From: Oscillospiraceae bacterium
Lineage (GTDB): Bacteria; Bacillota; Clostridia; Oscillospirales; Ruminococcaceae
Reading direction: 5' to 3'
Assembly: GCA_017435045.1 (NCBI GenBank)
Contig: JAFSFT010000031.1
Span: forward strand, 15,274 to 79,273
DNA: 64,000 nucleotides
Part shown: piece after piece, positions 33,339 to 52,776 of the stretch
How the letters are laid out: each line of letters begins with the position of its first letter
Position numbering within the stretch: the stretch's first letter is position 1
Notes under the pieces: generated by a model
Seen by the model: only the letters and a program-made list of their open reading frames with translations
Told to the model about the DNA's origin: nothing
Database searches by the model: none
Program-made: the position numbers and the translations under genes

Positions 33339-33367
33339 TTGAAAAAAATAAAGAAATGGAATATAAT
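33339..33367 (+). promoter_or_regulatory. Near-consensus sigma-A promoter upstream of the giant gene
   Basis: TTGAAA (33339-33344), a 17-nt spacer, then TATAAT (33362-33367). It sits ~185 nt upstream of the ATG at 33551, inside a 498-bp AT-rich intergenic region. Confidence 0.6.
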
Positions 33368-33550: not shown

Positions 33551-36500
33551 ATGTTTTTGAAAAAGAGAAGATTACTGGCGGCAGTTGTTGCCCTGGCAAT
33601 GGTTGTAAATGCATACACACCTGTATTTGCAGCAATTCCGGACAAAGCAGTAACTGACCCCTACAGCATGACAGAAGGCGAACTTGTTGCACACGCATAC
33701 GACGAACTTTCTGAAGCTGAAAAAAACCTGCTTAAAGACGGCGAAGTAACAGTTGGTAAAACATACCCTATTACAAGACCGGCAAGCAGCGATAATCTGG
33801 TAGCAATCAACCAGGAAGCAAAGACAATCAAAGCAGACAGCTTTGAAAATGGCGAGCTTACATGGGTACCGGTATCTGCAGTTCTCACAGAGGACGGCAG
33901 TGCAACAGAAAATGTTGCTCTTGATGCAGAAGGCAACGGCACATTTGCTTCTACAGCAGACAACTATTCTGTAACTGTAAAGTACGCACTGTCTGTTGAT
34001 GTTGACGAAGCTTTGCAGACATCTATGGTTAAAACACCTGGATATCTTAAAGACGCTGTTGACAACCTTAAAGCTGTTGAAGCTAAAGAAACTGTAATCA
34101 AAGAATTCCAGGAAGAAATTCCAACTTTGTACAGTCTCGCAACAGAAGGCGTTCAGACTCCGCTTTCAAAGGTTAAATTCTTCCAGAAGAACAAACAGCC
34201 AATGCAGGAAATTCTGGACCTTAAAGCAGAATACGATGCAAACGGCGGCAAGCTTGATGTATTTAAAATGCTCCAGGATTACAAAGCTATCGGCACAGAC
34301 ACATCTGCAAAACTGGAATACCTTCTGGCAGGCAACAGAGTTGACAACGCAATGGTTTCACTTTATGAAAAAGTGACTGCATTGCAGGAAAACTTTGATG
34401 GTCTTTATGACCTTATCAAAGATCAGGACCTGATTGAAGATGCAACTGACATGGCTACACTTACAACAGCTCACGATGCATTTGCACTTCTTGTTGAAGC
34501 TCTCAGCCCTGTTGCAACAAAAGGCGAATGGGCAATCTTTACAGAAGACCTTGCTCTTGTTGACAATGTTGACACAGACAAACTTGCTGTTTATGTTGAT
34601 GCACTCGATGCACCTACAGGCGGCAGCGTAACAGTTGCAAAAACAATTGAAGTTGAAACAGTTGATGTTGAAGCTGCAGTTAACCTTGTAAATGTTACAA
34701 TCAAAGTTACAGGTAAAAAAGCAAACGGCGTTGCAGGCAGCAAAGACTTCGCAGCTATGCCTGAATACACAGCTGTTGTAAAAGTTTCCAAAGGCACAGC
34801 AAAAGCTGAATACATTGCAAAAGCTGTAGCAACAGGTAAAGAAGCAGAAGCTGTTGCAGCTTGGGGCATTGATGCAGCACACTTTAACGTTGTAACAAAT
34901 GAAGCTGAACTTCCAGCAGCTACTGTTGAAGGCGAAGACCTCGTTTATACAATCGAATATTCACCAAAAGAATATAAAATCACAGAAGATTGGTCCGGCG
35001 GTAAAGAAGTTGACGTACATTACGGTTACATCTACGAATTCCCAGACCACACAAATCCGGAACAGGCTTACATCTATACAGTAAGCGGTAACAAATACGA
35101 ACAGCACGAAACATACACTGTTGAAGGCGATGTAACTGTTACAAGAGTTGCAGACAAAGCTAAATTGCCATTCGCATGGAACAAAATTGTTTCTGACAGC
35201 GTAAGCAGCCTGTCTGCAAAAGAAAAAGCAATCCTTGCAAGTGATGCTATCGACCACGGCTCTATCAGAGTTAAGGTTCCTGCAGCAGATGCTAACAACC
35301 CACTTGCAACTGCTAATATTACAGAAAAAACTGTAACAGCAAAAACATACGATGCAGGCTACGAAAACAGAGTATGGGTACCGGAAACAGTATATGTTGA
35401 CGGTGTAAAAGCAGGCACATTTGCTGAAGATGGCGATGCTTACAAAGCAACATACACAGGCGATGGTACAAAGATTGAAGTTGGCTATGTTCTCGTAGTT
35501 GAAAATGCTGAAGGCGAAGCTATTGCAAACCTTCCACACACACTTTCTGAAGAAGCAAAAGATCAGAAAGAAGCCCTTGATGACCTTTACGGTTACAAAG
35601 GCACAATCGAAAGCAACGTAACATACCTCTCTATCGTTGACCTTGTTATCAACGGCACAAGCTACAACTTTACACAGTCTGTTAAAGATGCTTATGCAAA
35701 CCTTACAAAATATGGTATGACAGGCAGTGGCGACACAGCTAAGATGAACCTTGCAACAGAACTTGGTTACTACCATGACCAGGGTCTTGCATACTACTAC
35801 ACAGGCGGCGATGAAAAAATCGCATACCAGGTAGAACTTCTTGAAGACTTCTGTGTAGAACTTATTGATGACGGCGCTAACGAAGCTGAACTGGTAAAAG
35901 CTCTTGGCAACTACAGCGGTCTGCTTGATGCACAGGGCATGACAGTTGACGAAGTTGTTGGCAAGTTCGACAGCATCCTCGGCTTCCTTGCAGCTTACAA
36001 CCCACCTGCACCAAATGCAGCAATCGACGCAGACGCTAACGTTGCAGGCCTTGCAGCAGCACTTGTAGCAGAAGGCACAACAAGCAGCGGTCACAATGTA
36101 GAAAGACTCTATCTCTCTGCAAAAGTTGCAGCAGAAGTTGCAGGTAAAGCAACAGTAACATTTATCGAATACACAAATGGTGCAGAAACAGGCAGAGAAA
36201 CATATGTAATCGAAGATGCAACAGTTGCTCTTACACAGGATGATTACAATAAAGCAATGGCTAAATGGAATGTGCTTGAAGCAGACAACGACCCCAAACA
36301 TTACACAATGACTGGCGAAGAAGTTGAAGGCACAGCACTTAAAGTTGGCGAAATCCCAGCAAGCTTTGTTACATATATCAGAAACTGGACACCTGTTTCC
36401 TATACAGTAAAAATTGAAGGCGAAACAGACAAAACATTTGTATTCAACGGCAGCAAATATACAATCAATCTTCCTGGGGCACCAGAAGGCAGTGGATTAC

Positions 36501-39500
36501 AGTACATCTATAATGTACCTGGTAAAGGCGAAATCACAGTTAATGAAGGCGATAGTTCTCCTGTGACATATACTGTTGATGAAATGGATGCAGTTTGTGA
36601 TGCTAACCGTGTGGTTACAATCACAAGAACAGCAAAAGATGTTTCCGTAATAGTATTTGATTCTCTTATCAGCACAATGAACAGCAATATGGCTGCAGCA
36701 GCAAATGGCGGCGAACTTGGTTTTGCATTTATGCCATTTGAAAAAGACGGCGACAATGCTGTTGTAATGCGTGTTGCTTACAAAGACGGCCTTGACGTAA
36801 TGGGCATTATGCAGGCACTTGGTACAGCGTTGGCTACTGGCTACTCCAATGCTGAAATAGGCGGTCACACAGTTTGGGATGGTGAGTTAAGCATTCAGGG
36901 CATGACAAATGCATTTATCGACGCAGGCTTTGGTATGGACAGCGTTGATAAAATCATTGATGACAACGGTAATATCATCAACCTCAAGCTTGATAATTAC
37001 ACATACCTCCTCAATGACGTAGAAAACTACGGCGGTGCTACACTTACAAAGGGCGCTCTTGGCGGCGAACTTATCAAAACAACTCTTACATATACAGATA
37101 AGGGTTATGGTGTAACAGATACAGTTGATTTCTACATCACACTTGCAACAGACAAAAACCTTGCAAAAGTTGACAAGGCACTTAACTGGGCAGCTAACTA
37201 TGCAAATATCAACTCTGTTGACGGTAAAGTTCAGATTGACATGAACATTCCGGAAGAAATCTATGCACTCTATATGACATACATGCTTGCAGAACAGGAA
37301 ATCACACTTGACACATTCAATGATGTTGAGCTGGAAACACTCCTCGGCTATGCAAAAGATGTTGCAGAACCTCTTATTGCAGACCTTGCAGCAGGCGAAA
37401 AATATGATGCAGACAGATTCTTTACAGAACTTGTTATTGAAAATACACTCAAACAGTATATGCCAGGCAACACAACAGACCTGTCCAGCTACGGCTCTGT
37501 TATGAAAAAAGGCGTTAAACTTGTTGACAAAGTTCTCACAGAAGTTAAACGTGACAGCGTAACTTACAATGGCGACTCCTGCTCCGTAACACTTACAGTT
37601 GAAGGTGTTAGAGATATGGTGGCAGGCTATGTTGGTGGAAATGGTGAATTTGTAAAAGACTTTATCGTTGATGAACCACTTACAGTTGACGTTAAACTTA
37701 CACTTGCCAACGTAAACACAGTTTACGAAGCATACGTAGTTGAAATCCCTGCAGATATGAAATCCGCAGAAGATATCAAAAACATTACAAAAGAAGATAT
37801 TAAAGGTCTCCTTAAACTTACAAGCGACCTTGAAGCAACCCTTAAAGCAGCTAAAGGTCCTGCACTTGTAGTATTGCTCGAAGATGCAAAACTTGACGAA
37901 GCTGTAACTCTTAACAGCGAATATATCGTTATCGACCTTAACGGTCACACAATCACAGGCGATATGACAGCAGCAGGCACAGCAATTGTTGTTGATGATA
38001 CACTCTCCACAGCAAATGCAGGCGGCGTTAAAGGCACACTCAGCGGCAACTTCAAACTCTTTGCAGGTAACTACACAAGTGTTGAAGATGCAATGATTCC
38101 GGAAGAGTATGAATTTGAAGACGGTTACGTTTCCAACAAATACTACTACCTCAAATCCACAGAAAACGAAGGTAAACTTGAAGAAGTTACAATCGTTCTC
38201 AAAGACGGCGTATTTGACCTTACAAAAGACGACCTCAAGAAAGGTCTTGTAGACACACTTGTTAGCTGTTCTGTTAACGCAGTTGTAAATGTAGCAGCTA
38301 ACCTTTACGGCTACAACACAGCAGAAGTTAACGGCACATGGCTCTACTCCTTCGGTGACAAGAATGTTATCGATATGGTAAATGTTGCTAAGGGCGGCAA
38401 AAATGCAATTATCAACGAAATTCTCGGTTATGTAAACCCAACAGCAGTTGAAGAAATTGCAAACAGCGTTCTTGCTGCATTTGTTGGCGAAAACGCTATC
38501 GTAAACGCTGCAGCAGCAGATACACTCTACTCCTGCAACCTTACACTCTCTCCTTGGGATATCCTCTACTCCATCGAAGGCGGCACATCTGATGATGCAT
38601 ACTTCAATGTAGCATACGCAGGCGACAAGGATAATCAGGTAAATGTAAAACTCTCCTTTGCTATGGAAGAACAGCTCGATGCTCTCCTTACAGCAATCGG
38701 CGAAGTTGTTACAATCAACGCAGCAAAAGTTGACCTCCCTGATGAACTCACATACAGCGGCGGCAAGTCCCTCTCATCCTTCGGCATCAGCCGTGATGAC
38801 TTCGGCGGCGAAATTGATGTAGTTGTTGACTTTACAAAAGATACAAACTACGCAATCATCCTTGCAGCAGTTCTTGCTAATGCAGGCGACAAAGCAGCAT
38901 ACTCCAGTGCTGTAAACAACCTTATCGACAACGGCTCACAGGCAGAACTTAAGAGCCTTATCGACAAAACAACAGTTGCAGGTCTTATCGATGCTCTCGA
39001 AAAAGCAAACGGCAAGTCCTTCGCAGCAATGCTTGGTGCACTCAACATCAATGATGCAGCAAGAGTTGAAGAAATCAAAACTCTTGAAGCTAAATACTCC
39101 GACATTCTCAAAGCAATCTACCTTGTATTTGATTATGTAGACCTTACAGGTCCTGCTACAAAACTTGGCAGCGTTGAAACAGAATTTGGTGTATACTACA
39201 AAGAAGCTAAGAAATACAACATTGATGGTAAAGCAACAGTTAAACTGTTTACAAACAAAGCAGAAATCGTTTCCGTAACACCTGTTATCGATATGGCAGG
39301 CGATGCATTCTACGGCTTCCAGTTTGACGAAAAAGAAAATCTCCTTATCGTTGACACAGTTGTTGAAGGCATTACAGAAGCAGACCTTAAAGCTCTTGTA
39401 CAGTACACAGTAAACGAAGCAACAACAGACCACAGTCTCACAGTTGCAGCAGAAGACCTCAAAGACGGCAAAGTTATCAACGGTGCTAAACTTACAATCA

Positions 39501-39805
39501 GAGCTTGGAACGACATCAGCGAAGATGAAAGAGAATACACAGTTATTGTTCTTGGCGATACAAACTCCAGCGGTAAGATTGAAGTAGGCGACGCAACAAG
39601 AATTGCAAGACACAAACTTGGCCAGCTTACAACACCAATGACAGACGTTCAGCTTCTTGCAGCTGATACAAACATGGACGGCGACATCAACGTTGGCGAC
39701 CCAGTTAAGATCAGTGTAAAATGGATGTGCGCAACAAGTGATGAATACCTTGTAACATATCCTGACGGTTACAACACAGCACTGACAAACAAAATCATTA
39801 AATAA
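33551..39805 (+). CDS. Giant secreted protein (2084 aa) with a C-terminal dockerin
   Basis: Signal peptide MFLKKRRLLAAVVALAMVVNAYTPVFA. Very strongly biased codon usage. Internal IVIDLNGHTITGD module (~37930-37965). Dockerin at the C-terminus. No LPXTG. Confidence 0.9.
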   Translation: MFLKKRRLLAAVVALAMVVNAYTPVFAAIPDKAVTDPYSMTEGELVAHAYDELSEAEKNLLKDGEVTVGKTYPITRPASSDNLVAINQEAKTIKADSFENGELTWVPVSAVLTEDGSATENVALDAEGNGTFASTADNYSVTVKYALSVDVDEALQTSMVKTPGYLKDAVDNLKAVEAKETVIKEFQEEIPTLYSLATEGVQTPLSKVKFFQKNKQPMQEILDLKAEYDANGGKLDVFKMLQDYKAIGTDTSAKLEYLLAGNRVDNAMVSLYEKVTALQENFDGLYDLIKDQDLIEDATDMATLTTAHDAFALLVEALSPVATKGEWAIFTEDLALVDNVDTDKLAVYVDALDAPTGGSVTVAKTIEVETVDVEAAVNLVNVTIKVTGKKANGVAGSKDFAAMPEYTAVVKVSKGTAKAEYIAKAVATGKEAEAVAAWGIDAAHFNVVTNEAELPAATVEGEDLVYTIEYSPKEYKITEDWSGGKEVDVHYGYIYEFPDHTNPEQAYIYTVSGNKYEQHETYTVEGDVTVTRVADKAKLPFAWNKIVSDSVSSLSAKEKAILASDAIDHGSIRVKVPAADANNPLATANITEKTVTAKTYDAGYENRVWVPETVYVDGVKAGTFAEDGDAYKATYTGDGTKIEVGYVLVVENAEGEAIANLPHTLSEEAKDQKEALDDLYGYKGTIESNVTYLSIVDLVINGTSYNFTQSVKDAYANLTKYGMTGSGDTAKMNLATELGYYHDQGLAYYYTGGDEKIAYQVELLEDFCVELIDDGANEAELVKALGNYSGLLDAQGMTVDEVVGKFDSILGFLAAYNPPAPNAAIDADANVAGLAAALVAEGTTSSGHNVERLYLSAKVAAEVAGKATVTFIEYTNGAETGRETYVIEDATVALTQDDYNKAMAKWNVLEADNDPKHYTMTGEEVEGTALKVGEIPASFVTYIRNWTPVSYTVKIEGETDKTFVFNGSKYTINLPGAPEGSGLQYIYNVPGKGEITVNEGDSSPVTYTVDEMDAVCDANRVVTITRTAKDVSVIVFDSLISTMNSNMAAAANGGELGFAFMPFEKDGDNAVVMRVAYKDGLDVMGIMQALGTALATGYSNAEIGGHTVWDGELSIQGMTNAFIDAGFGMDSVDKIIDDNGNIINLKLDNYTYLLNDVENYGGATLTKGALGGELIKTTLTYTDKGYGVTDTVDFYITLATDKNLAKVDKALNWAANYANINSVDGKVQIDMNIPEEIYALYMTYMLAEQEITLDTFNDVELETLLGYAKDVAEPLIADLAAGEKYDADRFFTELVIENTLKQYMPGNTTDLSSYGSVMKKGVKLVDKVLTEVKRDSVTYNGDSCSVTLTVEGVRDMVAGYVGGNGEFVKDFIVDEPLTVDVKLTLANVNTVYEAYVVEIPADMKSAEDIKNITKEDIKGLLKLTSDLEATLKAAKGPALVVLLEDAKLDEAVTLNSEYIVIDLNGHTITGDMTAAGTAIVVDDTLSTANAGGVKGTLSGNFKLFAGNYTSVEDAMIPEEYEFEDGYVSNKYYYLKSTENEGKLEEVTIVLKDGVFDLTKDDLKKGLVDTLVSCSVNAVVNVAANLYGYNTAEVNGTWLYSFGDKNVIDMVNVAKGGKNAIINEILGYVNPTAVEEIANSVLAAFVGENAIVNAAAADTLYSCNLTLSPWDILYSIEGGTSDDAYFNVAYAGDKDNQVNVKLSFAMEEQLDALLTAIGEVVTINAAKVDLPDELTYSGGKSLSSFGISRDDFGGEIDVVVDFTKDTNYAIILAAVLANAGDKAAYSSAVNNLIDNGSQAELKSLIDKTTVAGLIDALEKANGKSFAAMLGALNINDAARVEEIKTLEAKYSDILKAIYLVFDYVDLTGPATKLGSVETEFGVYYKEAKKYNIDGKATVKLFTNKAEIVSVTPVIDMAGDAFYGFQFDEKENLLIVDTVVEGITEADLKALVQYTVNEATTDHSLTVAAEDLKDGKVINGAKLTIRAWNDISEDEREYTVIVLGDTNSSGKIEVGDATRIARHKLGQLTTPMTDVQLLAADTNMDGDINVGDPVKISVKWMCATSDEYLVTYPDGYNTALTNKIIK
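39554..39728 (+). other. Dockerin module (two EF-hand-like Ca-binding repeats) within the giant protein
   Basis: GDTNSSGKIEVGDATRIARHKLG ... ADTNMDGDINVGDPVKISVKWM. Both loops fit D-x-N-x-[DS]-G-x-[IV]-x-x-x-D followed by a helix. Confidence 0.8.
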
Positions 39806-39823
39806 TTAACAGGCAAAGGAAAA

Positions 39824-39848
39824 GCGCCTTAAAGCTTTTTTAAGGCGC
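39824..39848 (+). other. Stem-loop between the giant gene and the cohesin-like gene (no 3' U-tract)
   Basis: GCGCCTTAA-agctttt-TTAAGGCGC. The downstream sequence is ggctcctgcc, so it is not a canonical terminator. Confidence 0.4.
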
Positions 39849-39890
39849 GGCTCCTGCCAAAACAGTTTTATAGTTTTTGAAAGGATAAGT

Positions 39891-41012
39891 ATGTTTAACA
39901 AATTTAAGAAACTTGCAGCAGTTTGTGCAGCACTTACACTTACATTTGTGTTTGCTGCTACACCTGTTTCTGCTGCTACATCTGAAGTAACTGCTAAACC
40001 TGGCGAAACAGTAACAGTTAAACTGTTCAATGCAAAAGGCGAATTTGGCGTTGAAGGCGAAATCAGCTACGACAACAAAGGTCTTTTCTCCGACGTTTCT
40101 GTAGACTCCAAAGGCGGTCTCGGCGGCGAAATGACATCTGATGCTGTTTTCCTTTACAGCGGCGAAGAAGGCACAGGTAGCGTAAAACTTAAAGTTACAG
40201 TAAAATCCGATGCTCAGGCTGGCGACAAATGTGTTATCACATTCCCATACGAAACAGCAGACAGAGACGGTAACATGGTTGATAGCGGTGTAAACACTAT
40301 CACAGTTAAAGTTGAAAAGAAATCCAGCTCCGACGACAAAGATGATGACGATGACAAAACACCATCCACACCATCAGCAACACCAGCTCCTGTAGTAAAA
40401 TCTGACCTTACAGAAGCTAACCGCCTTATCGCAATGGTAGGCGAACTCAACAAAGCTGACTACACAAGCGACAGCTGGAATGCTCTTATCGCAGCATTGA
40501 ACAAAGTTAAAGCTCTTACAGTTTACACACCACAGGCAGAAGTTGACGCAGCAGTTGCAGCATTGCAGGCAGCTATCGACGGCCTTGTAAAAATTGACTA
40601 CACAGCACTTCGTGCAGCAATCGATGCAGCAGAAGCTCTCAAATCCGACTCCGAATTTGCAGCTCTCTGGAACGAATTGCTCGCAGCACTTGCAAACGCA
40701 ATGGCTAACCTCGAAGGCACATCTCAGGAAGAAGTTGACGCTAGCGCAGCAGCACTTGCTGATATCGTAGCTAGAATCCAGGCTTATCTTGCAGGCCTTA
40801 CAGAAGCTCCAGTAGTTCAGGAACCAACAGAAGAACCAGTTGAAGGTTGTGGCGTTCCATTCCACAAACTCCTCCTCATCCTTCTCGTTATCAGTGCAGC
40901 TCTCAACGTAGTTCTTGGCGGCGTTCTCTACAAAAATATGCAGAACAAAAACAAGAAACTTAAAGACGGCACACCAATGGTGAACTACAAAGCATCAGAA
41001 GACGATAAATAA
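39891..41012 (+). CDS. Membrane-anchored cohesin-like protein with helical FIVAR-like repeats
   Basis: Signal peptide ...FVFAATPVSA. Cohesin-like beta-sandwich AKPGETVTVKLFNAKGEFGVEGEISYDNKGLFSDVSV...AVFLYSGEEGTGSVKLKVTVKSDAQAGDKCVITFPYE. Asp/Pro/Thr linker. Helical repeats DYTSDSWNALIAALNKVKAL. C-terminal TM LLLILLVISAALNVVLGGVLY followed by a basic tail. Confidence 0.7.
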   Translation: MFNKFKKLAAVCAALTLTFVFAATPVSAATSEVTAKPGETVTVKLFNAKGEFGVEGEISYDNKGLFSDVSVDSKGGLGGEMTSDAVFLYSGEEGTGSVKLKVTVKSDAQAGDKCVITFPYETADRDGNMVDSGVNTITVKVEKKSSSDDKDDDDDKTPSTPSATPAPVVKSDLTEANRLIAMVGELNKADYTSDSWNALIAALNKVKALTVYTPQAEVDAAVAALQAAIDGLVKIDYTALRAAIDAAEALKSDSEFAALWNELLAALANAMANLEGTSQEEVDASAAALADIVARIQAYLAGLTEAPVVQEPTEEPVEGCGVPFHKLLLILLVISAALNVVLGGVLYKNMQNKNKKLKDGTPMVNYKASEDDK

Positions 41013-41027
41013 TAAGGAGCTTATTAA

Positions 41028-42485
41028 GTGTCTGAAAAATTTTCAAGAAAAATAAGCTATAACACCTGGGACGAGGCCTTCAGAGGCCTCGCCCCGAAGG
41101 TGCGTCAGGAATCAGTGCGTGTTGCTGAGTATGCACAGGTGTTATATCTGCAGGCAGTAAAAAGTGATTTTTACTCAGAAAATGAACGGTGGCAGAACAG
41201 AATGCAGTCCCAGTATGGCGAGCTTGCCTTTAAATGCGGATTGTATCATCAGTTCGGCAAGGCATTTATGCCAACAGAGCTTCAGCTGTGGAGCAACAAC
41301 AAAACAGAGGAGCAGCAATCTGCGTACAAGCAGTACACAGTTGATGGTCCTGTGCTTGTTGAGCACCTTCACAGAAAAACTGCAAGAGTAAGAACATGGG
41401 GCAGACAGCAGCCAATCGAGGACAAGATAGAAAATATTCCAACCCTTATGATTATGGAAAGCTGTGCCATGCATATGGAGCGTTTTGACGGTACAGGTTA
41501 TCCTGAAGGCCTTTCTCTGTATGATGTAAGCCCTATCGGCTACATAGTTGGTCTTGCAAAGGAGTTTGACCGCCTTGTGTGCAGCACAAAGTCCGAAACT
41601 CCGTTTGAAGATACCTTTGAAACTCTTACAGGCACATTAAATCAGTTTCCGCCAGAGCTTATTGATTGTCTTAAAAAAGTTAAATCCCAATATGAGGAGA
41701 TTTACAAAAAATACATTCAGTATTCCCGCACTTTGCCTGCAACAATTCCGCTTGTAGACAAAAGGGAAGACAGACCAATGGGGCTTACACTTACCCCAAT
41801 GTTAAGCACAAAAACACAGAAACCTGTATATTATATGGCAGATATATGGTTTGGCACCGAAATTATGAAAGTTCAGGAAGACCTGCCAAGCAACAATCTG
41901 GCATCTGTGTTTAAAAGAACAGGCATCTACCCTCAGCTTTGCACATATTTTATGTACGAAGCCTGCGACACAGTGCTCCGCATGGAGAACTGCCAGCTCA
42001 GTACAGAGGGTGTAATTCTCAACATTCTTCCTGAATTTTACTCACTGACCAACCAGATGGAATTGTTCGACAAGCTTTTTGCCGACCAACCGATTGACAA
42101 AAAGCACTTTATGCTTACAGTTCCGGAAAATGCGGTTATAAACGCAACAAAATCCACATTGGAAAACATCAGACGATATATGCGCCACGGCGTAAATATT
42201 GTGCTTAAAGATTATAACCCTGAAAGATTTTCAGTAGAAAAGCTTACCGAAATCGGCTTTAAATATGTAATTCCGTCAAAGGATCTGTACGGCACAGAAT
42301 ATCTTGCCAGAACAATTCCTATGCTGGAACGCCACAACATTAAGCTTATAGCTGCAGGTGTGGACGAAGCCGACAAGGTTGAATGGTTAAAAGAACACAA
42401 CTTTATCTGTTACGGCGGCCCTGCAGCAGGTGTTGCGGTAACAGAAGACAGCTTAATCCGTGAATGTCTTCTCAGCGAAGACTAA
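41028..42485 (+). CDS. Cytoplasmic protein with degenerate HD-GYP and degenerate EAL-like domains (putative c-di-GMP sensor)
   Basis: GTG start 7 nt after aaggag. LYHQFGK occupies the HD position (HQ at 41247-41252). AMHMERFDGTGYPEGL is the HHExxDGxGYP block with the first H changed to M. The C-terminal ~240 aa has EAL-fold spacing but reads KDYNPERFS instead of DDFGTGYS and IAAGVDEAD instead of AEGVE. Confidence 0.65.
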   Translation: MSEKFSRKISYNTWDEAFRGLAPKVRQESVRVAEYAQVLYLQAVKSDFYSENERWQNRMQSQYGELAFKCGLYHQFGKAFMPTELQLWSNNKTEEQQSAYKQYTVDGPVLVEHLHRKTARVRTWGRQQPIEDKIENIPTLMIMESCAMHMERFDGTGYPEGLSLYDVSPIGYIVGLAKEFDRLVCSTKSETPFEDTFETLTGTLNQFPPELIDCLKKVKSQYEEIYKKYIQYSRTLPATIPLVDKREDRPMGLTLTPMLSTKTQKPVYYMADIWFGTEIMKVQEDLPSNNLASVFKRTGIYPQLCTYFMYEACDTVLRMENCQLSTEGVILNILPEFYSLTNQMELFDKLFADQPIDKKHFMLTVPENAVINATKSTLENIRRYMRHGVNIVLKDYNPERFSVEKLTEIGFKYVIPSKDLYGTEYLARTIPMLERHNIKLIAAGVDEADKVEWLKEHNFICYGGPAAGVAVTEDSLIRECLLSED

Positions 42486-42495
42486 ATGAGAAAAG

Positions 42496-43620
42496 ATGAA
42501 AAAGAACAGCGAACCAAACAACACAAAACCCGAAGACAAGCTTAAACAGCAGCGGACACCTTTAAAGAAAAAACGTGCCGGTGTTGTTCTGTCACGCCAT
42601 CAGGTAAAGGAAATTAAAGCGGGGCGTAAAAAGCTTCGTAAAGAGCTTAAGAAGGCGGGCATAAAAAGCAAAAAGGACTTTGAGGTTACAGCGGCAAGCC
42701 TTGGTCTGTATTTTGACAAGCCAAAGGGCAGCCTGTTCTGGCTGCTGCTCAAGGGCAAAGCCCTGTGGGCACTGCTTGGTGCTGCGGCACTGTTTCTGTC
42801 GGTTCTGTTCCTTTTCTCTCTCCTCGAACAGATGAGAGGTCACTTTACCATCAACCTCAGTGAAGAGATGCTTAACAAAGGTTTTATCTTAAGCGAAACC
42901 GAGGATTTCTCAAACCCTGTAACGGTGCTTTACTGCGAGCCAAAAACCAACGTGGCGGCAACCTCCATATCCCATATCCCTACAGATGTTATGGATCATC
43001 AGGGTATGTATGATGACGACACAGTCTTTGCCTACAGCTTCTTTATGAAGTACGAGGGCGAGGAAACAGGCCATTACCGATATGATATAAAGGTTAACTC
43101 TGAATATCTTGACGTAAGCAAGGCCTGCTGGGTAATGGTTTTTGCAGACGGCGAAATGTCCTTCTATGCCGAAGAAGGCGCAGACGGCCTGCCGGAAAGC
43201 ATACCTGCACAGGACGATAACAGCCGCGGTTATCCGGAAGCATATTTTATGGATTATGCAAAAAATCCGGCCGACCAGTATGAAATTATCAAAGAAATCG
43301 GCAACGCAAAATATTATCGTCTTATACCAAAGCCTTTCAATGACGAAAGACGCGTTACAAGACAGGACGGTATGGCCCTTAACGACCAGGAATATCACAA
43401 ATACACAGTGGTAATCTGGCTGGAGGGTGACGACCCTGAATGTGTAAACGATATTATCGGCGGACATCTCGGTTTACAGATGAACTTTGCACTCCTCGGC
43501 GAAGAGGAAGAAGAGGACTTCGGCCTCAGCAACGAGGGCCTGCTTGATAACCTTGGTCAGTACTGGGTTAAATTTATAGAAGACCTTGAAAGTCTGTTTG
43601 GCGGATTGAAATACGACTAA
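42496..43620 (+). CDS. Family member A: type-II-anchored TasA-like-motif protein with a Lys-rich cytoplasmic tail
   Basis: 374 aa. Tail KKKRAGVV..KAGRKKLRKELKKAGIKSKK. TM ALWALLGAAALFLSVLFLFSLL. The ectodomain ends YTVVIWLEGDDPECVNDIIGGHLGLQMNFALLG, followed by EEEEEDFG. Starts 10 nt after the preceding stop. Confidence 0.6.
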   Translation: MKKNSEPNNTKPEDKLKQQRTPLKKKRAGVVLSRHQVKEIKAGRKKLRKELKKAGIKSKKDFEVTAASLGLYFDKPKGSLFWLLLKGKALWALLGAAALFLSVLFLFSLLEQMRGHFTINLSEEMLNKGFILSETEDFSNPVTVLYCEPKTNVAATSISHIPTDVMDHQGMYDDDTVFAYSFFMKYEGEETGHYRYDIKVNSEYLDVSKACWVMVFADGEMSFYAEEGADGLPESIPAQDDNSRGYPEAYFMDYAKNPADQYEIIKEIGNAKYYRLIPKPFNDERRVTRQDGMALNDQEYHKYTVVIWLEGDDPECVNDIIGGHLGLQMNFALLGEEEEEDFGLSNEGLLDNLGQYWVKFIEDLESLFGGLKYD

Positions 43621-43733
43621 ACTTAAACTTGGCATAAATTGTGCTTTGTTACAGCACTCACAGGGAGGGCTGGCACTGCACATTTATAAATAAATTTTTT
43701 AATCTTTAAAAAATAAGAAAGAAGGAGATTGCA

Positions 43734-45806
43734 ATGAACAACAGAAAAAAGCAGCTTAATTCTATTAAGAAAAAGATGATGGCTGCAACATCTATGTTAT
43801 TGGTAGCATCTATTATGATGGTTTCATCCACATACGCTTGGTTTACACTGTCAACTGCACCAGAAGTTACAGGTATTTCCACAACAGTAGGCGCTAACGG
43901 TAACCTTGAAATCGCATTGGCTAACCCACTTGGTGACCCATCCACAGTTACATCAGGCGTTGGCGATTCCACAGCAAGCGGTAAAGTAGTTACAGCTTCC
44001 AACCTTACTTGGGGTAACCTTGTAGACCTTGGCGATGCAAGCTACGGTCTTAAAGACATCGTTCTCCAGCCTGCAGCACTCAGCGCAGAAGAGGATGCAT
44101 TTACACATGCTATGGTAGTTAAATCCAACATCCTTTCCACACCTGAATACGGTGCAGACGGCAGAGTATCCGCTCTTGTAGACAAATCCACAACAGCGTC
44201 CTTTGATGCTCTGACAGGCAAATGGGTAACAGGTACAACAGAAAACCCAGGTTACGGTGTAAGAGCAGTTGGTCTGCTTTCCGGCCAGAGCGAAACAACT
44301 GTTGCATTCCGTGAAGCACGTGCACAGCTTTCTCAGCAGGCACAGAGTGCTAAAAACTCTGCAAGTGCTGCTTTGGTTGCAAACGGCGACACACTTGGTA
44401 ACGTTATCATCAAAAAAGCTCTCGACGGCGACGCAGCAAGCTTTACAGAAGAAGAACTTGATGCTCTTGGCGAAATGATCGGTGGTCTTGAACACACAAT
44501 GACATACATCGACAAAGCTATCCAGTACGGTGCTCTTGGCCGTGCAGCAAGTGCTGAATTTACAGATACTGTAAAATACGAAGCAATCAAAGCTGCAATT
44601 GCATCCACAGAAACACCTGCAACAGCAGAAAGCATCCTCAAAATCTTCTACGGCACAGTAGCTAATGATGCAGTTACACCTGCAGCTTCTGTTCCAACAG
44701 ATAAAACAGGCGATGTACTTATCGACACATACAACAAATACCTTGCAACAGTAGCTGCTATTGACGTAGCTAACGGTAAATACGAAACAGCTTCAGAAGC
44801 AGGCAACTACTCCTGGGAAGCTATTTCCCCAGTTCTCAACGCACTTGTTGTTTACAACAATGTAACAGTTAACGGCCTTACAGTTGACGATGTTAAAGCT
44901 AACATCAGCGCACTTGTAAACTCTGCTCTTAAAGGCGGTATCAAAGTTACAATGCCAACAGGCTCCGGTGTTATCGCTGACGTTGCTGACCTTGCAGGCG
45001 ACTACTCTGCAGGTATCACACTCAGAAACATCGAATATGCAGGTGCAACTGTAGAAGAACTTCCAGCTACAATGAACACAGCATCCACAGTTGACCCAGA
45101 ACACATCGAAAAAGTTTCTCAGTTCATCCTTTCCAAAGGTGCTATGACTTCCGGTACAGAAGGCGGCGACACATCTACATTTACAGATGCTTACGCTTAC
45201 ATCATCGACCTGTTCTTCAGAACAAACGTTGCAGGCTCTAACCTCCTGCTCCAGACAGAAGCTGTAGACCGTGTATACTCTGACCAGACAGAAGGTGCAA
45301 CACAGGGTAAAGGCAGCTCCATGATTTTCACAACAGAAAATACAGAAGCATTCTCTGTTCCACAGATGAAACAGCTTATGAACTGCATCAAACTTGTATT
45401 TGTTGACGAAGACAATGCAATCCTTGCAAAAGGTATGCTCGACGTTGCTTCCGCAACAGACACAGTTGAAGGCACAACAGGTACTGTTGAAGCAAAAATC
45501 AACCTTTACACAGAAACAACAGTTGACAATGTAACAACTGTAACAAAACTTGAAGGTACAGATGCTAAACTTGCAGCTCTTACACAGAACGAAGCTAAGA
45601 TGGTTTCTGTAATTGTTTACCTCGACGGTGCAAACGTTGACAACTCCATGGTTGCTAACGCTGCAACATCCATGACAGGTATGCTCAACCTCCAGTTTGC
45701 AAGCGATGCACAGCTTGTTCCAATGGAAAACAGCCAGATCAGAGACCTTCCTACAGGTGAAGAAGCAGGCGACAACACAACAGAAGGCGAAGGCGCAGGT
45801 GCATAA
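43734..45806 (+). CDS. Family member B (690 aa): candidate major fibre subunit with a TasA/SipW-type signal motif
   Basis: N-terminus KKKMMAATSMLLVASIMMVSSTYAWFTLSTAPEVTGISTTVGANGNLEIAL (TYAWF at 43830-43844). C-terminal VIVYLDGANVDNSMVANAATSMTGMLNLQFASDAQ. Codon usage is as biased as pheST and the SBP gene. RBS aaggag. Confidence 0.7.
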   Translation: MNNRKKQLNSIKKKMMAATSMLLVASIMMVSSTYAWFTLSTAPEVTGISTTVGANGNLEIALANPLGDPSTVTSGVGDSTASGKVVTASNLTWGNLVDLGDASYGLKDIVLQPAALSAEEDAFTHAMVVKSNILSTPEYGADGRVSALVDKSTTASFDALTGKWVTGTTENPGYGVRAVGLLSGQSETTVAFREARAQLSQQAQSAKNSASAALVANGDTLGNVIIKKALDGDAASFTEEELDALGEMIGGLEHTMTYIDKAIQYGALGRAASAEFTDTVKYEAIKAAIASTETPATAESILKIFYGTVANDAVTPAASVPTDKTGDVLIDTYNKYLATVAAIDVANGKYETASEAGNYSWEAISPVLNALVVYNNVTVNGLTVDDVKANISALVNSALKGGIKVTMPTGSGVIADVADLAGDYSAGITLRNIEYAGATVEELPATMNTASTVDPEHIEKVSQFILSKGAMTSGTEGGDTSTFTDAYAYIIDLFFRTNVAGSNLLLQTEAVDRVYSDQTEGATQGKGSSMIFTTENTEAFSVPQMKQLMNCIKLVFVDEDNAILAKGMLDVASATDTVEGTTGTVEAKINLYTETTVDNVTTVTKLEGTDAKLAALTQNEAKMVSVIVYLDGANVDNSMVANAATSMTGMLNLQFASDAQLVPMENSQIRDLPTGEEAGDNTTEGEGAGA

Positions 45807-45864
45807 TCGTCTAACTGTTTAAGTGCGATTTTGTTATCAATAACAAAAACTTACATATCTTATA

Positions 45865-45888
45865 TCGGGGCAGTGCCAACTGCCCCGA
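45865..45888 (+). other. GC-rich stem-loop after member B (no U-tract)
   Basis: TCGGGGCAG-tgccaa-CTGCCCCGA followed by ctaagataaaaaaa. Confidence 0.45.
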
Positions 45889-45928
45889 CTAAGATAAAAA
45901 AATTTAATAACGGGAGGAAATGTAAACA

Positions 45929-46915
45929 TTGAAAGTTTCACAGTATAAAAACAAAAAACGCTTTCAGATTGTTAAAGTTTTATATGTGACAATTGTCCTT
46001 CTTGCATTGACTACCGTTGCAACTTATACCTGGTTCAATTTAAGTACAAGACCATCCATCAACGATATGTCCATCTATATCAACAGCGGTGTCGGTCTGG
46101 AACTTTCCCTCGATAAAAACAGCGAGGAATGGTCATCCCAGATAGATTTCCGCGAACTGGAGATGGAAAACACCCCACTCGTACCAATCACTTATTCCCA
46201 GGCAGACAACAGCTTTTACACAGTTGTCCACGGTGCAGACGGCAGAATTGCAAGTGTAGACTATAAAATTCAGCCATCGCCAATACCAAAAAGTCTGGAA
46301 AATAACGGTTATTACCTCAAGGTTTCCTTTTTTGGCAGAACAGACGAGGATATAAAGGTTTATCTCTCTCCTGCAGTGGAACTGGAAAGAGGCACAGTTG
46401 GGGCGGGCACATGGCTTATCGGTGCACCTACATGGGATGGCGAAACTGTCAGCCACAAAAACGGCGGCGGCGGTGCCGAATACGCAATGCGTGTTGGCAT
46501 CAACATTACCTATCTTAACGAACTGGGCAACAGTACAGGCAATTCTGTCTTTTATATGTACGAGCCTAACTACGACGGACATCTTGACGGCTCCACAGGC
46601 TATGTTGAGACAAAGTCTGTAAACGGAGACCCGCTTATAAACGAGCAGTTTCTTATAAAACAGACCAAATCCACCTGGCGTGATGCCGACCTTGTGCAGA
46701 AAAATGTTATTATCAGCGACCTTGGCACCTTTGACAAGGAACCGTTGCTCTTTGAAATTGACGAGGGCGAAATGGTGCAGATAGAGCTTTATTTCTGGCT
46801 GGAAGGTCAGGATATCGACTGCGGCAACCTGCTTAACGAACAGTGTATGATTATGTCAAACATTCAGTTCCGTGCAGAAACAGAGGGCAGCAGCGAACTG
46901 CGTCCTATCTATTGA
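45929..46915 (+). CDS. Family member C (328 aa), TasA/SipW-type signal motif
   Basis: TTG start after gggagg. VLYVTIVLLALTTVATYTWFNLSTRPSINDMSIYINSGVGLELSL. HGADGRIASV parallels YGADGRVSAL of member B. C-terminal IELYFWLEGQDIDCGNLLNEQCMIMSNIQFRAE. Confidence 0.65.
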   Translation: MKVSQYKNKKRFQIVKVLYVTIVLLALTTVATYTWFNLSTRPSINDMSIYINSGVGLELSLDKNSEEWSSQIDFRELEMENTPLVPITYSQADNSFYTVVHGADGRIASVDYKIQPSPIPKSLENNGYYLKVSFFGRTDEDIKVYLSPAVELERGTVGAGTWLIGAPTWDGETVSHKNGGGGAEYAMRVGINITYLNELGNSTGNSVFYMYEPNYDGHLDGSTGYVETKSVNGDPLINEQFLIKQTKSTWRDADLVQKNVIISDLGTFDKEPLLFEIDEGEMVQIELYFWLEGQDIDCGNLLNEQCMIMSNIQFRAETEGSSELRPIY

Positions 46916-47047: not shown

Positions 47048-47935
47048 ATGAAACTGAATAAATTTAACAAAAAAGAAAAACAACAGTTGCGGCAGGCTGC
47101 AGCGGGCGGCAATGTTGCAGAAAATGCCAACGGCGAAGTTATTGTTGTTGAAGAAGAAAAAGGAAGTATCTTAAACACAATTGTTAACGTCTTCCTTGTA
47201 GTTGCTATTGTAATAGCAGTTGTATGTACATATGTGTCATTTGTATCTACATCGGGCAGTGGTGTGCCAAGTATCCTTGGTATAAGACCATTCTCCATCC
47301 AGACAGAATCCATGTATCCTACATTCCTGCCTGGCGACCTTATCATCGATACAGCAGTTGACGACACAAGCGAGCTTGAGGTTGGCGATATCATCACATA
47401 CTGGACAATCATCAACGGCGAACGTGTACTCAACACCCATAGAATTTCAGCTATATATGACGGCGGCGGATACCTCATCTTTGCCACACAGGGTGATAAC
47501 AACCAGTCTGCCGACGCACTTACCGTTCACGAATCGGAGGTTGTAGGTAAGTATAAATTCAGGATACAGGGGTTAGGTAAAGTCTTTGACTATCTGCAGA
47601 CAAGCACAGGCTTCCTTATCGTTGTAGTTGTTCCTGTATTTATCTTCTTTATCTTCCACCTTATCAAGTTCTTCCAGGTGCTCTTTGAATATCAGAACAT
47701 CAAGAACAGAATCGTTTACGAACAGGAAAGAGGCAATGCAGAGGAACTTATTGCTGAACAGAAACGTCAGCAGGAAGAACTTAACCGTCTGCGTGAAGAA
47801 CAGAAAAACAAAGAAAAACAGGAGCTGGAAGAAAAACTGCGTGCTCAGCTTAAAGCTGAAATCCTCGCAGATATGCTCAAGGAAAAAGAAGCTGCTGCAC
47901 CTGCAGAAGCTGCACAAAACGTTGAGGAAGTATAA
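47048..47935 (+). CDS. Signal peptidase I, archaeal/ER (SipW) type, copy 1, with a C-terminal TM and coiled-coil tail
   Basis: 295 aa. Catalytic blocks FSIQTESMYPTFLPGDLII, NTHRISAI and ATQGDNN; compare B. subtilis SipW SGSMEP / THRI / TKGDNN (from memory). Second TM FLIVVVVPVFIFFIFHLIKFF, then EQKRQQEELNRLREEQKNKEKQELEEKLRAQLKAE. Confidence 0.8.
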   Translation: MKLNKFNKKEKQQLRQAAAGGNVAENANGEVIVVEEEKGSILNTIVNVFLVVAIVIAVVCTYVSFVSTSGSGVPSILGIRPFSIQTESMYPTFLPGDLIIDTAVDDTSELEVGDIITYWTIINGERVLNTHRISAIYDGGGYLIFATQGDNNQSADALTVHESEVVGKYKFRIQGLGKVFDYLQTSTGFLIVVVVPVFIFFIFHLIKFFQVLFEYQNIKNRIVYEQERGNAEELIAEQKRQQEELNRLREEQKNKEKQELEEKLRAQLKAEILADMLKEKEAAAPAEAAQNVEEV

Positions 47936-49557: not shown

Positions 49558-49571
49558 GGTGTAAAAGGACT

Positions 49572-52771: not shown

Positions 52772-52776
52772 AAACA

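What the first reader, a model, noticed from the sequence alone, without database searches (positions are those of the whole stretch)
41028..42485. Doubly degenerate HD-GYP + EAL protein at the head of the fibre genes: likely c-di-GMP receptor rather than enzyme
The N-domain keeps the GYP block (AMHMERFDGTGYPEGL, 41469-41504). However, it reads H-Q where the metal-binding H-D pair should be (LYHQFGK, 41247-41252), and M replaces the first His of HHE.

The C-terminal ~240 aa has EAL-domain spacing, but the catalytic positions are replaced:
- no E-A-L/E-x-L after the QKPVYYMAD strand
- KDYNPERFS instead of DDFGTGYS
- IAAGVDEAD instead of AEGVE

Degenerate EAL or HD-GYP domains elsewhere, such as LapD and FimX, act as c-di-GMP sensors controlling adhesin display or pili. 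This gene sits 15 nt after the cohesin-like anchor gene and 10 nt before the Lys-rich-tailed anchored family member A. That suggests second-messenger control of fibre or adhesin display.
Basis: partly seen in the sequence, partly recalled or inferred. Interest (0 to 1): 0.65.

Follow-up and report, generated by a model that had tools for sequence, protein, structure and literature searches.

The report
Dead HD-GYP–EAL protein in fibre operon
This gene encodes a protein built from two c-di-GMP-degrading enzyme domains that have both lost their catalytic residues yet are strongly conserved, and it sits at a fixed place in an uncharacterised surface-fibre gene cluster of gut Oscillospiraceae, so it is probably a signal sensor or adaptor rather than an enzyme.

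Summary
ORF 41028-42485 (+, 485 aa) scores above Pfam threshold for HD_5 (HD-GYP) and EAL, and its C-terminal half models as an EAL barrel.

- **HD-GYP domain:** only 2 of the 8 PmGH metal ligands remain. The changes are H→E28, D→Q75, H→Y103, H→M150 and D→K178. The GYP motif is kept.
- **EAL domain:** only 3 of the 10 canonical residues remain.
- **Conservation:** the HD-GYP replacements are fixed across at least 138 homologues and 142 species genomes. dN/dS is 0.02-0.17 in both domains, so this is a maintained pseudo-enzyme, not decay.
- **Ancestry:** relatives about 25% identical keep an intact HD-GYP site and sit in the same operon, so catalysis was lost inside the system.
- **Context:** the gene is always followed by a membrane protein with a conserved cytoplasmic domain, and in most loci the two genes lie 3-4 nt apart or overlap. 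Next come SipW-type secreted proteins, a SipW-like peptidase and a McrB-like ATPase.
- **Expression:** bovine metatranscriptome contigs span both gene junctions.

c-di-GMP binding is plausible but unproven. DvhD is a proven receptor with a degenerate HD-GYP domain. If binding occurs, the HD-GYP pocket is the likelier site, because the EAL site has lost the ExLxR arginine.

I rate this a new variant of a known kind.

The parts
41028..42485 (+). Gene for the 485-aa doubly degenerate HD-GYP + EAL protein (GTG start, GGAG 9 nt upstream)
41067..41723 (+). N-terminal HD-GYP-like all-helical domain (about residues 14-232)
   Evidence: Pfam HD_5. Profile hits to V-cGAP3 at 1e-19, PA4781 at 3e-16, PmGH at 2e-11 and DvhD 9rbz. 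Helical in the model.
41109..41111 (+). E28, at the position of metal ligand H189 of PmGH (Q in 33 of 45 family members, H in the intact-HD-GYP relatives)
41247..41252 (+). H74-Q75 in place of the HD pair (Q in 43 of 45); K78 of HDxGK is kept
41334..41336 (+). Y103, at the position of metal ligand H250 of PmGH (Y in 45 of 45; H in the intact relatives)
41472..41504 (+). H149-M150-E151-R-F-D-G-T-G-Y158-P159: HHE has become HME (second His lost; M in 42 of 45) and the GYP motif is intact
41559..41570 (+). K178-E-F-D181: metal ligand D305 replaced by Lys (K in 41 and R in 4 of 45); structural D308 kept as D181
41778..42479 (+). C-terminal EAL-fold domain (about residues 251-484), catalytically degenerate
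   Evidence: Pfam EAL; Foldseek TM 0.75-0.81 to TBD1265, MorA, MucR and FimX
41835..41849 (+). M270-A271-D272-I273-W274 at the E-A-L-x-R position (family consensus E-A-x-P-W)
   Evidence: strand 266-275 in the model
42207..42233 (+). K394-D395-Y-N-P-E-R-F-S in place of DDFG(T/A)GYS (loop 6)
42270..42272 (+). I415 at the catalytic Lys position (Arg in 38 of 45 family members)
42351..42365 (+). A442-A443-G444-V445-D446 in place of A-E-G-V-E
42496..43620 (+). g374, the invariable downstream partner. It has a small conserved cytoplasmic domain (residues about 21-75), a TM helix (88-113), an RGHFTINLS motif, an extracellular beta-sandwich and a C-terminal helix.
43734..45806 (+). g690, a secreted protein whose signal peptide ends in ...STYAWFTLS (SipW-cognate-like)
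45929..46915 (+). g328, a secreted family member (...ATYTWFNLS)
47048..47935 (+). SipW-like type I signal peptidase
   Evidence: NCBIfam TIGR02228 at 88.8 bits against a cut-off of 51.85; present in 55 of 57 loci
47935..49557 (+). Membrane-anchored McrB-like AAA+ protein
49572..51323 (+). g583; its homologues carry a weak DUF2357 match (one search aligns it to the L094 homologue)
33551..39805 (+). 2084-aa surface protein with a C-terminal dockerin-like match just below Pfam's cut-off; first gene of the transcription unit
39891..41012 (+).
33339..33367 (+). Best sigma-70-like promoter match (TTGAAA-17-TATAAT) upstream of the unit
   Evidence: consensus match only; RNA contigs begin near 33500

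Best explanation
The gene encodes a soluble cytoplasmic pseudo-phosphodiesterase. It descends from an HD-GYP c-di-GMP phosphodiesterase with a C-terminal EAL-like domain that was already part of this fibre operon. In the window's clade the HD-GYP metal centre was replaced by a fixed set of polar residues (Q/E28, Q75, Y103, M150, K178) and the EAL site decayed further, so it cannot hydrolyse c-di-GMP.

**Shown here**
- Both catalytic sites are dead.
- Both domains are under strong purifying selection.
- The gene has a fixed place in the operon.
- It is transcribed together with its neighbours.
- Its ancestry traces to forms with an intact HD-GYP site in the same operon.

**Inferred**
- It still works as the cytoplasmic sensor or adaptor of the machine.
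- It most likely binds c-di-GMP without metal in the remodelled HD-GYP pocket. The GYP tyrosine Y158, K78, K188 and the newly introduced K178 could take over phosphate contacts, as in DvhD.
- It passes the signal to the conserved cytoplasmic N-terminal domain of the membrane-anchored protein encoded immediately downstream (g374). That would gate assembly or anchoring of the SipW-processed surface proteins.
For: **Catalytic loss**
- Only H74 and H149 remain of the 8 PmGH metal ligands. Ala at H189, H221, D222, H250, H276 or H277 abolishes PmGH activity (PMC4159591).
- Only N332, E367 and D395 remain of the 10 canonical EAL residues.

**Maintained function**
- The HD-GYP replacements are invariant or nearly so in 45 aligned homologues.
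- dN/dS is 0.02-0.17 in each domain.
- The N-domain is more conserved than the C-domain (71% against 58% mean column identity).

**Operon membership**
- g374 follows in 78 of 78 loci, g690 in 63 of 63, SipW in 55 of 57 and the AAA+ protein in 53 of 55.
- In most of 78 loci the g374 start lies 3-4 nt after the stop or overlaps it.
- RNA contigs span 33536-41341 and 41339-42802.

**Link to c-di-GMP**
- Relatives with an intact HD-GYP site sit in the same operon.
- A canonical EAL gene lies three genes upstream in L091 and L092.

**Precedent and partner**
- DvhD's degenerate HD-GYP domain (SQ / MNE / GYP) binds c-di-GMP without metal and controls adhesins (PMC13090378).
- The g374 cytoplasmic motif is conserved in both clades and is modelled with high confidence.
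Against: - No binding test was possible.
- The RPY loop (R314 in PmGH; R650 and Y652 in DvhD by my own numbering) is absent. The family reads ..ETKSE.PF there.
- The claw residue F92, conserved in the family, is Lys in the window protein.
- The EAL site lacks the ExLxR Arg and is about as degenerate as YdiV, which does not bind c-di-GMP (PMC3510510).
- No GGDEF gene or c-di-GMP riboswitch lies in the 64-kb window.
- The interaction with g374 rests on gene order and tight spacing only.
- The fibre (TasA-like) nature of the downstream proteins is inferred from SipW and the signal-peptide motif. The fold search on g374 was inconclusive.
Confidence: 0.5

Rival explanations
1. Nucleotide-blind adaptor or assembly factor. 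Both pockets have lost ligand binding, and the protein works purely through protein-protein contacts with g374, the AAA+ ATPase or a GGDEF protein via the GYP loop. YdiV/RflP, BluF and HnoD work this way.
For: - 7 of the 10 EAL residues are lost, including the ExLxR Arg.
- A-A-G-V-D resembles the AGGID of YdiV.
- The RPY loop is absent.
- YdiV lost 8 of 10 and does not bind c-di-GMP (PMC3510510).
- HnoD and RpfG act through protein contacts (bioRxiv 2021.11.05.467447; PMC4159591).
Against: - The replaced pocket residues (Q27/Q28, Q75, Y103, M150, K178) are themselves invariant. That suggests the pocket is still used.
- The N-domain is the most conserved part.
- DvhD shows that such a pocket can bind c-di-GMP.
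Confidence: 0.3
2. Sensor of a different ligand, such as pGpG, 3'3'-cGAMP, c-di-AMP or another nucleotide or phosphorylated metabolite, bound in the remodelled HD-GYP or EAL pocket.
For: - The best solved-structure match is the cGAMP phosphodiesterase V-cGAP3, which itself has a degenerate first HD-GYP domain.
- The YdiV groove holds phosphate and glycerol.
- The pocket is remodelled rather than simply decayed.
Against: - The only nucleotide-signalling gene seen in any related operon is a c-di-GMP-type EAL protein.
- No evidence for other dinucleotide cyclases was found.
Confidence: 0.12
3. It is still a phosphodiesterase that uses a non-canonical mechanism.
For: - H74, H149, E151 and D181 are retained in the HD-GYP domain.
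- N332, E367 and D395 are retained in the EAL domain.
Against: - Four of the six HD-GYP ligands whose Ala substitution abolishes PmGH activity are replaced.
- The EAL domain lacks the catalytic Lys, the first Glu of EGVE, loop 6 and the EAL Glu.
- DvhD, with similar changes, is inactive.
Confidence: 0.05
4. It is a decaying relic with no function.
For: Both catalytic sites are lost.
Against: - dN/dS is 0.02-0.17.
- Full-length homologues occur in 142 species genomes.
- Its operon position is invariant.
- It is transcribed.
Confidence: 0.02

Closest known systems
DvhD of Desulfovibrio vulgaris (degenerate HD-GYP c-di-GMP receptor; PDB 9rbz/9rc0; PMC13090378)
   Same: - The HD-GYP domain has lost its metal ligands but kept GYP: HD→SQ against HQ here, and HH→MN against HM here.
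- It is linked to control of giant surface adhesins.
- It is catalytically inactive.
   Different: - DvhD is a transmembrane dCache-PAS-HD-GYP protein of a Gram-negative Lap-like system that acts on a periplasmic protease.
- It keeps the RPY loop and has no EAL domain.
- The window protein is soluble, carries an EAL-like domain, lacks RPY, and sits in a Gram-positive SipW-type operon.
- Sequence similarity is weak (E 0.008).
LapD and FimX (degenerate EAL c-di-GMP receptors)
   Same: - They have an EAL fold without catalytic residues and control adhesin display or pili.
- The FimX EAL domain is a structural match (TM 0.66-0.71).
   Different: - They are GGDEF-EAL proteins.
- They retain the c-di-GMP contact residues of the EAL site (my own knowledge).
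- Here the ExLxR Arg is Trp and only 3 of the 10 canonical residues remain.
YdiV/RflP of E. coli (degenerate EAL, anti-FlhDC factor; PMC3510510)
   Same: - It has an EAL fold with 8 of 10 conserved residues lost.
- EGVE is replaced by AGGID (AAGVD here).
- It acts by protein-protein contact.
   Different: - It is a stand-alone EAL domain that does not bind c-di-GMP and targets a transcription factor.
- It has no HD-GYP domain and no operon link to a secretion system.
V-cGAP3 (PDB 5z7c), PA4781 (4r8z) and PmGH (4mcw): HD-GYP phosphodiesterases
   Same: - These are the best sequence matches of the N-domain (E 1e-19, 3e-16 and 2e-11).
- V-cGAP3 also has a degenerate regulatory HD-GYP domain fused to another phosphodiesterase domain.
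   Different: They are active enzymes with intact metal ligands in at least one domain, and they have no EAL domain.
B. subtilis tapA-sipW-tasA and C. perfringens sipW-bsaABCRSD matrix-fibre operons (PMC7395162)
   Same: They pair a dedicated SipW-type peptidase with secreted proteins that carry the cognate signal-peptide motif.
   Different: - Those operons have no HD-GYP/EAL protein, no AAA+/DUF2357 pair and no giant dockerin protein.
- No sequence or confident fold match to TasA was found here.

Membership tests
HD-GYP domain (Pfam HD_5, PF13487) | Profile match above the curated threshold and an all-helical HD fold | tested here: met
   42.6 bits against a cut-off of 27.2; profile hits to solved HD-GYP structures; helical in the model
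HD-GYP domain (active phosphodiesterase) | Metal-ligand set E185, H189, H221, D222, H250, H276, H277, D305 (PmGH numbering) | tested here: not met
   K24, E28, H74, Q75, Y103, H149, M150, K178: only 2 of 8 are kept
HD-GYP domain | HHExxDGxGYP loop with the GYP tyrosine | tested here: met
   H-M-E-R-F-D-G-T-G-Y158-P; G and P are invariant, and Tyr is Y in 37, F in 6 and W in 2 of 45. The second His is lost.
HD-GYP domain | RPY(K/R) substrate-binding loop (R314 and K317 in PmGH) | tested here: not met
   The family reads ETKSExPF with a 2-residue deletion. Only the K317 equivalent (K188) is kept. The loop is also absent in the intact-HD-GYP relatives.
EAL domain (PF00563) | Profile match above threshold and a TIM-like EAL barrel | tested here: met
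   51.4 bits against a cut-off of 31.3; TM 0.75-0.81 to TBD1265, MorA and MucR
EAL domain (active phosphodiesterase) | The ten conserved catalytic or binding residues: E and R of EALxR, E, N, E, DD, K, E of EGVE, Q | tested here: not met
   M270, W274, K296/R297, N332, E367, K394, D395, I415, A443, G463: 3 of 10 are kept
EAL domain (active phosphodiesterase) | Loop 6, DFG(T/A)GYSS | tested here: not met
   DYNPERFS
Degenerate-EAL c-di-GMP receptors (LapD/FimX type) | Measured c-di-GMP binding at the EAL site | not testable with these tools
   No ligand docking or assay was available. The loss of the ExLxR Arg argues against the canonical binding mode.
Degenerate-HD-GYP c-di-GMP receptors (DvhD type) | Metal-independent c-di-GMP binding in the HD-GYP pocket | not testable with these tools
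   The pattern of ligand loss is similar: D→Q, a His→Met, GYP kept. Binding was not measured.
SipW-dependent matrix-fibre operon (TasA type) | Dedicated SipW-class signal peptidase in the operon | tested here: met
   TIGR02228 at 88.8 bits against a cut-off of 51.85; conserved in 55 of 57 loci
SipW-dependent matrix-fibre operon (TasA type) | Substrates with a TasA/camelysin fold | tested here: inconclusive
   No Pfam, NCBIfam or PDB sequence hit. The g374 beta-sandwich gives only weak fold hits, with AbpA 7ueg at rank 13 and E 6e-3.

The most novel reading that the evidence does not exclude
A soluble, doubly dead HD-GYP-EAL pseudo-enzyme is the dedicated cytoplasmic second-messenger receptor of a previously undescribed Gram-positive surface-fibre or adhesin assembly machine. 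That machine would comprise SipW-processed subunits, a membrane-anchored family member with a conserved cytoplasmic docking domain, and a membrane-bound McrB-like AAA+ protein with a DUF2357 partner. Signalling would be inside-out through the docking domain. Within this one operon family there are both enzyme-competent and receptor-only versions, which would offer a natural series of a phosphodiesterase turning into a receptor.
Probability: 0.3. Interest if true: 0.8.

Novelty: new variant of a known kind. Interest (0 to 1): 0.6.

Why it matters
Degenerate GGDEF, EAL and, since 2026, HD-GYP domains are known c-di-GMP receptors, almost all studied in Proteobacteria.

- **Unusual architecture.** An N-terminal HD-GYP domain is fused to a C-terminal EAL domain and both are dead. 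The fusion does not appear in the text of the HD-GYP domain survey I read.
- **Fixed operon position.** The protein is locked into a large, uncharacterised surface-protein operon found in at least 142 species-level genomes of uncultured gut and rumen Oscillospiraceae.
- **A natural contrast.** Relatives with an intact HD-GYP site occupy the same operon position, which gives a ready-made comparison for asking how a phosphodiesterase becomes a receptor.
- **What it would explain.** If confirmed, it would show how abundant gut Clostridia couple second-messenger levels to display of giant dockerin-bearing surface proteins or fibres.

Tried and rejected
- **Riboswitch search.** Rfam at gathering threshold over the whole window, and at E ≤ 1 over 32000-43800, found only a T-box leader at 10116-10370.
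- **GGDEF search.** Pfam scans of the window ORFs I judged likely genes found none. tblastn with the L091 GGDEF-EAL protein hit only L091 and L092.
- **hhalign of the EAL sub-alignment against E. coli PdeH and YdiV.** The alignments were partial and low-probability. I used them only as consistency checks.
- **Metagenome locus search with the intact-clade alignment.** I replaced it with a protein search and contig look-ups.
- **Fold search on g374 to test a TasA-like fold.** Inconclusive. The PDB profile search and PHROGs gave nothing.
- **PADLOC.** There was no hit for the HD-GYP-EAL protein. The AAA+ protein matched PDC-M26A.
- **Mapping DvhD residue numbers onto the alignment.** This needed an inferred offset of 490. 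I treat that mapping as my own inference.
- **Pseudogene or relic reading.** Rejected on dN/dS and conservation.
- **Published descriptions.** None of my literature searches turned up a description of this operon.
Full report
**1. The observation**

The ORF is at 41028-42485 on the + strand. It is 485 aa long and starts with GTG, with GGAG 9 nt upstream. It begins 15 nt after the stop of the 39891-41012 gene and ends 10 nt before the ATG at 42496.

Both Pfam matches clear their curated thresholds:
- HD_5, the HD-GYP model: residues 67-186, E 6.8e-11.
- EAL: residues 286-461, model positions 45-227 of 236, E 1.2e-13.

An AlphaFold2 model built on 45 homologues has mean pLDDT 88.4 and pTM 0.77. 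Its C-terminal half superposes on solved EAL domains (TBD1265, MorA, MucR, BifA, FimX) with target-normalised TM 0.66-0.81.

The quoted motifs are at the stated places. One detail is wrong. Against PA4781 and PmGH, HHE aligns to H149-M150-E151, so the second His is the one replaced.

**2. How degenerate is each domain?**

*HD-GYP domain.* PmGH binds its iron centre through E185, H189, H221, D222, H250, H276, H277 and D305. Alanine at H189, H221, D222, H250, H276 or H277 abolishes activity (PMC4159591).

| PmGH ligand | Window protein |
|---|---|
| E185 | K24 |
| H189 | E28 |
| H221 | H74 (kept) |
| D222 | Q75 |
| H250 | Y103 |
| H276 | H149 (kept) |
| H277 | M150 |
| D305 | K178 |

Two of the eight ligands survive, and four of the six essential ones are gone. 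Four features are kept:
- K78, the Lys of HDxGK.
- D181, equivalent to D308.
- The DGxGYP loop with Y158, the tyrosine that hydrogen-bonds a c-di-GMP phosphate in PmGH.
- K188, equivalent to K317.

The RPY loop that supplies R314 is absent.

*EAL domain.* I used HMMER alignments to MorA, the strand positions in the model and the ten residues held to be essential for catalysis and binding (PMC3510510).

| Canonical EAL residue | Window protein |
|---|---|
| E of EAL | M270 |
| R of EALxR | W274 |
| E of the AE motif | K296/R297 |
| N | N332 (kept) |
| E of ExxE | E367 (kept) |
| DD | K394, D395 (second kept) |
| Catalytic K | I415 |
| First E of EGVE | A443 |
| Q | G463 |

Three of the ten remain. 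Loop 6 (DFGTGYS) reads DYNPERFS.

**3. It is a maintained family, not decay**

- A protein search returned 138 full-length homologues of about 485 aa. The precomputed Pfam annotation lists HD_5 for all 120 shown and EAL for most of them. The few named ones come from Oscillospiraceae, Clostridia or Lachnospiraceae MAGs.
- A scan of GTDB species representatives found 142 genomes with a relative. Nearly all are labelled as gut or rumen Clostridia MAGs, including Faecousia, Vescimonas, Avispirillum, Acutalibacteraceae and CAG:413.
- In a 45-sequence alignment the replacement residues are themselves conserved:
  - Q27: 45 of 45
  - Q/E28: 44 of 45
  - Q75: 43 of 45
  - Y103: 45 of 45
  - M150: 42 of 45
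  - K/R178: 45 of 45
- The EAL consensus is Y-E-A-x-P-W-F. E is present in 37 of 45, but W replaces the Arg in 42 of 45. The consensus also has D(D)YHP for loop 6, R for the catalytic Lys, and GGxAD for EGVE. The window's own subclade is the most eroded (M270, K394, I415).
- Pairwise dN/dS between closer homologues is 0.02-0.17 overall and similar in each domain.
- The N-domain is more conserved than the C-domain, at 71% against 58% mean column identity.

**4. Ancestry**

An HMM search of 1.84 billion representative proteins gave 95 clusters at E ≤ 1e-30. Beyond the core clade (E < 1e-149) lie full-length relatives about 20-29% identical to the query.

Most of these relatives have the canonical HD-GYP residues: H28, H74-D75, H103, H149-H150-E151, D178 and D181. 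They also carry a degenerate but less eroded EAL-like domain, with E-A kept, Arg kept in some, K→R, and ADGxE for AEGVE.

Three of these relatives could be placed on contigs (L091-L094). Each is followed by homologues of the same downstream genes:
- g374
- g690-like and g328/g461-like proteins
- the SipW-like peptidase (50-57% identity)
- the AAA+ protein (58%) and g583, wherever the contig reaches that far (L091, L094)

In L091 and L092, a gene with a canonical EAL domain (EML..R, N, EITE, DDYGSGY, K, EGVQ, QG) and a degenerate GGDEF motif lies three genes upstream on the same strand.

The protein was therefore already part of this machine when its HD-GYP domain looked active. Catalysis was lost in the window's clade while the gene stayed under selection.

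**5. Context**

tblastn of the window's operon proteins against 84 related loci shows a fixed gene order:

| Gene after the HD-GYP-EAL gene | Loci with it, of those long enough |
|---|---|
| g374 | 78 of 78 |
| g690 | 63 of 63 |
| g328 | 57 of 59 |
| SipW-like peptidase | 55 of 57 (median 73% identity) |
| McrB-like AAA+ | 53 of 55 (median 67% identity) |
| g583 | 52 of 55 |

A giant surface protein usually lies upstream (43 of 54 loci), and the 373-aa anchor less often (29 of 70).

In most loci the g374 start lies 3-4 nt after the HD-GYP-EAL stop or overlaps it by 4 or 8 nt. That spacing suggests translational coupling.

g374 has 992 homologues and no Pfam domain. Its N-terminus carries a conserved cytoplasmic motif, FKKRRAGxVLTxxEVxEIKxGRKxLRKExKxxGIKSKKxFELTASSLGLYFDK. 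This is not merely a Lys-rich tail, and it is kept in the intact-clade partners. The g374 model (pLDDT 84.5) has these parts:
- a small, confidently modelled domain at residues 21-70
- a TM helix at 88-113
- a beta-sandwich at 117-333
- a C-terminal helix

g690 and g328 have signal peptides ending in ..TYAWFTLS and ..TYTWFNLS, and g374 has RGHFTINLS after its TM helix. From my own knowledge these resemble the SipW-cognate signal-peptide motif.

The fibre or TasA-like fold itself was not confirmed. The fold search on g374 gave only weak beta-sandwich hits, with archaeal bundling pilin 7ueg at rank 13 and E 6e-3.

**6. Expression**

Assembled contigs from two bovine metatranscriptomes, 95-99% identical to the window, cover 33536-41341. 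That span runs through the giant gene and the anchor gene into the HD-GYP-EAL gene. Further contigs cover 41339-42802, running from the HD-GYP-EAL gene into g374.

This is consistent with one transcript. The tool warns that contig depth is a poor measure of expression and that DNA can be present in such runs.

The best promoter-like site is at 33339-33367, and the simple consensus scan listed no convincing + strand terminator inside the unit. The gene heads the conserved core but is the third gene of the unit.

**7. Is it a c-di-GMP receptor?**

For:
- It descends from a c-di-GMP-type phosphodiesterase within the same machine.
- A canonical EAL phosphodiesterase sits in one sister operon.
- The pocket replacements are invariant, and the pocket-bearing domain is the best-conserved part of the protein.
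- The GYP tyrosine is retained. A Lys has been introduced where a metal-binding Asp was. I infer that this Lys could supply the positive charge of the lost metal.
- DvhD is a direct precedent. Its HD-GYP domain reads SQ for HD and MN for HH, keeps GYP, binds c-di-GMP without metal, is inactive, and controls giant adhesins (PMC13090378). It aligns to the family.

Against:
- The RPY loop used by PmGH and, by my numbering, by DvhD is missing.
- F92, conserved in the family at the position aligned with a DvhD residue that clamps a guanine base (by the same numbering), is Lys in the window protein.
- The EAL site has lost the ExLxR arginine and seven of ten residues. That is comparable to YdiV, which does not bind c-di-GMP.
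- No GGDEF gene or c-di-GMP riboswitch lies in the window.

I conclude that 'not an enzyme' is very likely (about 0.9). 'Sensor or adaptor of the fibre machine that acts on g374' is the best reading. c-di-GMP as the ligand is about even odds. If it does bind, the HD-GYP pocket is the likelier site, not the EAL site that the LapD/FimX analogy implies.

**8. Novelty**

Degenerate EAL and HD-GYP receptors are known. Four things are new here:
- the N-terminal HD-GYP plus C-terminal EAL fusion with both sites dead
- its fixed place in an uncharacterised SipW-type operon of uncultured gut Clostridia
- relatives with an intact HD-GYP site in the same operon position
- the conserved partner with a cytoplasmic docking domain

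None of my literature searches turned up a description of this operon. The HD-GYP-EAL fusion does not appear in the text of the HD-GYP domain survey. I file this as a new variant of a known kind, with interest 0.6.

Noticed in passing
window 47935-51323: The two most conserved genes of the operon are an AAA+ protein and the gene after it. The AAA+ protein has N-terminal TM segments and resembles McrB (Pfam AAA_5; PDB 6hz4 at E 0.005; PADLOC PDC-M26A at 1e-41). Homologues of the 583-aa protein that follows carry a weak DUF2357 match. DUF2357 proteins, as far as I recall, pair with McrB-like ATPases in restriction systems; that link was not tested here. This pair always follows the SipW-like peptidase. 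Its role in a surface-protein operon is unexplained.
   Followed up: partly
window 42496-42720 (g374 residues 1-75): The 'Lys-rich tail' is a conserved, confidently modelled small cytoplasmic domain (beta-hairpin plus two helices; motif ...RAGxVLTxxEVxEIKxGRKxLRKE...FELTASSLGLYFDK). It has no match in Pfam, NCBIfam or PHROGs and no credible PDB sequence match. The family has 992 homologues.
   Followed up: partly
window 51386-62136: A second module lies downstream. It holds another family member (g461), a second S26 signal peptidase (52777-53487), three ORFs with no Pfam match (521, 248 and 668 aa), and a 1438-aa protein whose N-terminus is homologous to g690. A BspA-type LRR protein follows at 62216-63916.
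   Followed up: partly
window 39824-39848: A perfect 10-bp palindromic stem-loop (GCGCCTTAAA...TTTAAGGCGC) sits in the 85-nt gap between the giant gene and the anchor gene. RNA contigs read through it, so it may be an attenuator or a processing or stability element.
   Followed up: no
L091 5717-7510 and L092 690-2483: In one lineage with an intact HD-GYP-EAL protein, a membrane-anchored protein lies three genes upstream in the same orientation, followed by two small ORFs. It has a degenerate GGDEF motif (SASEF) and a canonical EAL domain.
   Followed up: partly
window 10116-10370: A T-box leader (104.7 bits) lies upstream of pheS/pheT (10443-13864). This is ordinary.
   Followed up: yes
L017 and L088: These are the only two loci with 10 kb of downstream sequence in which g328, SipW and the AAA+ protein were not found. 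A g1438-like hit lies at about +6 kb, so the operon may be expanded or rearranged there.
   Followed up: no
window 43624-46279: The metatranscriptome contigs at 95% identity or more leave g690 and most of g328 almost uncovered, while the flanking genes are covered. This could reflect strain divergence of the exposed subunits or lower RNA abundance; I could not tell which.
   Followed up: no
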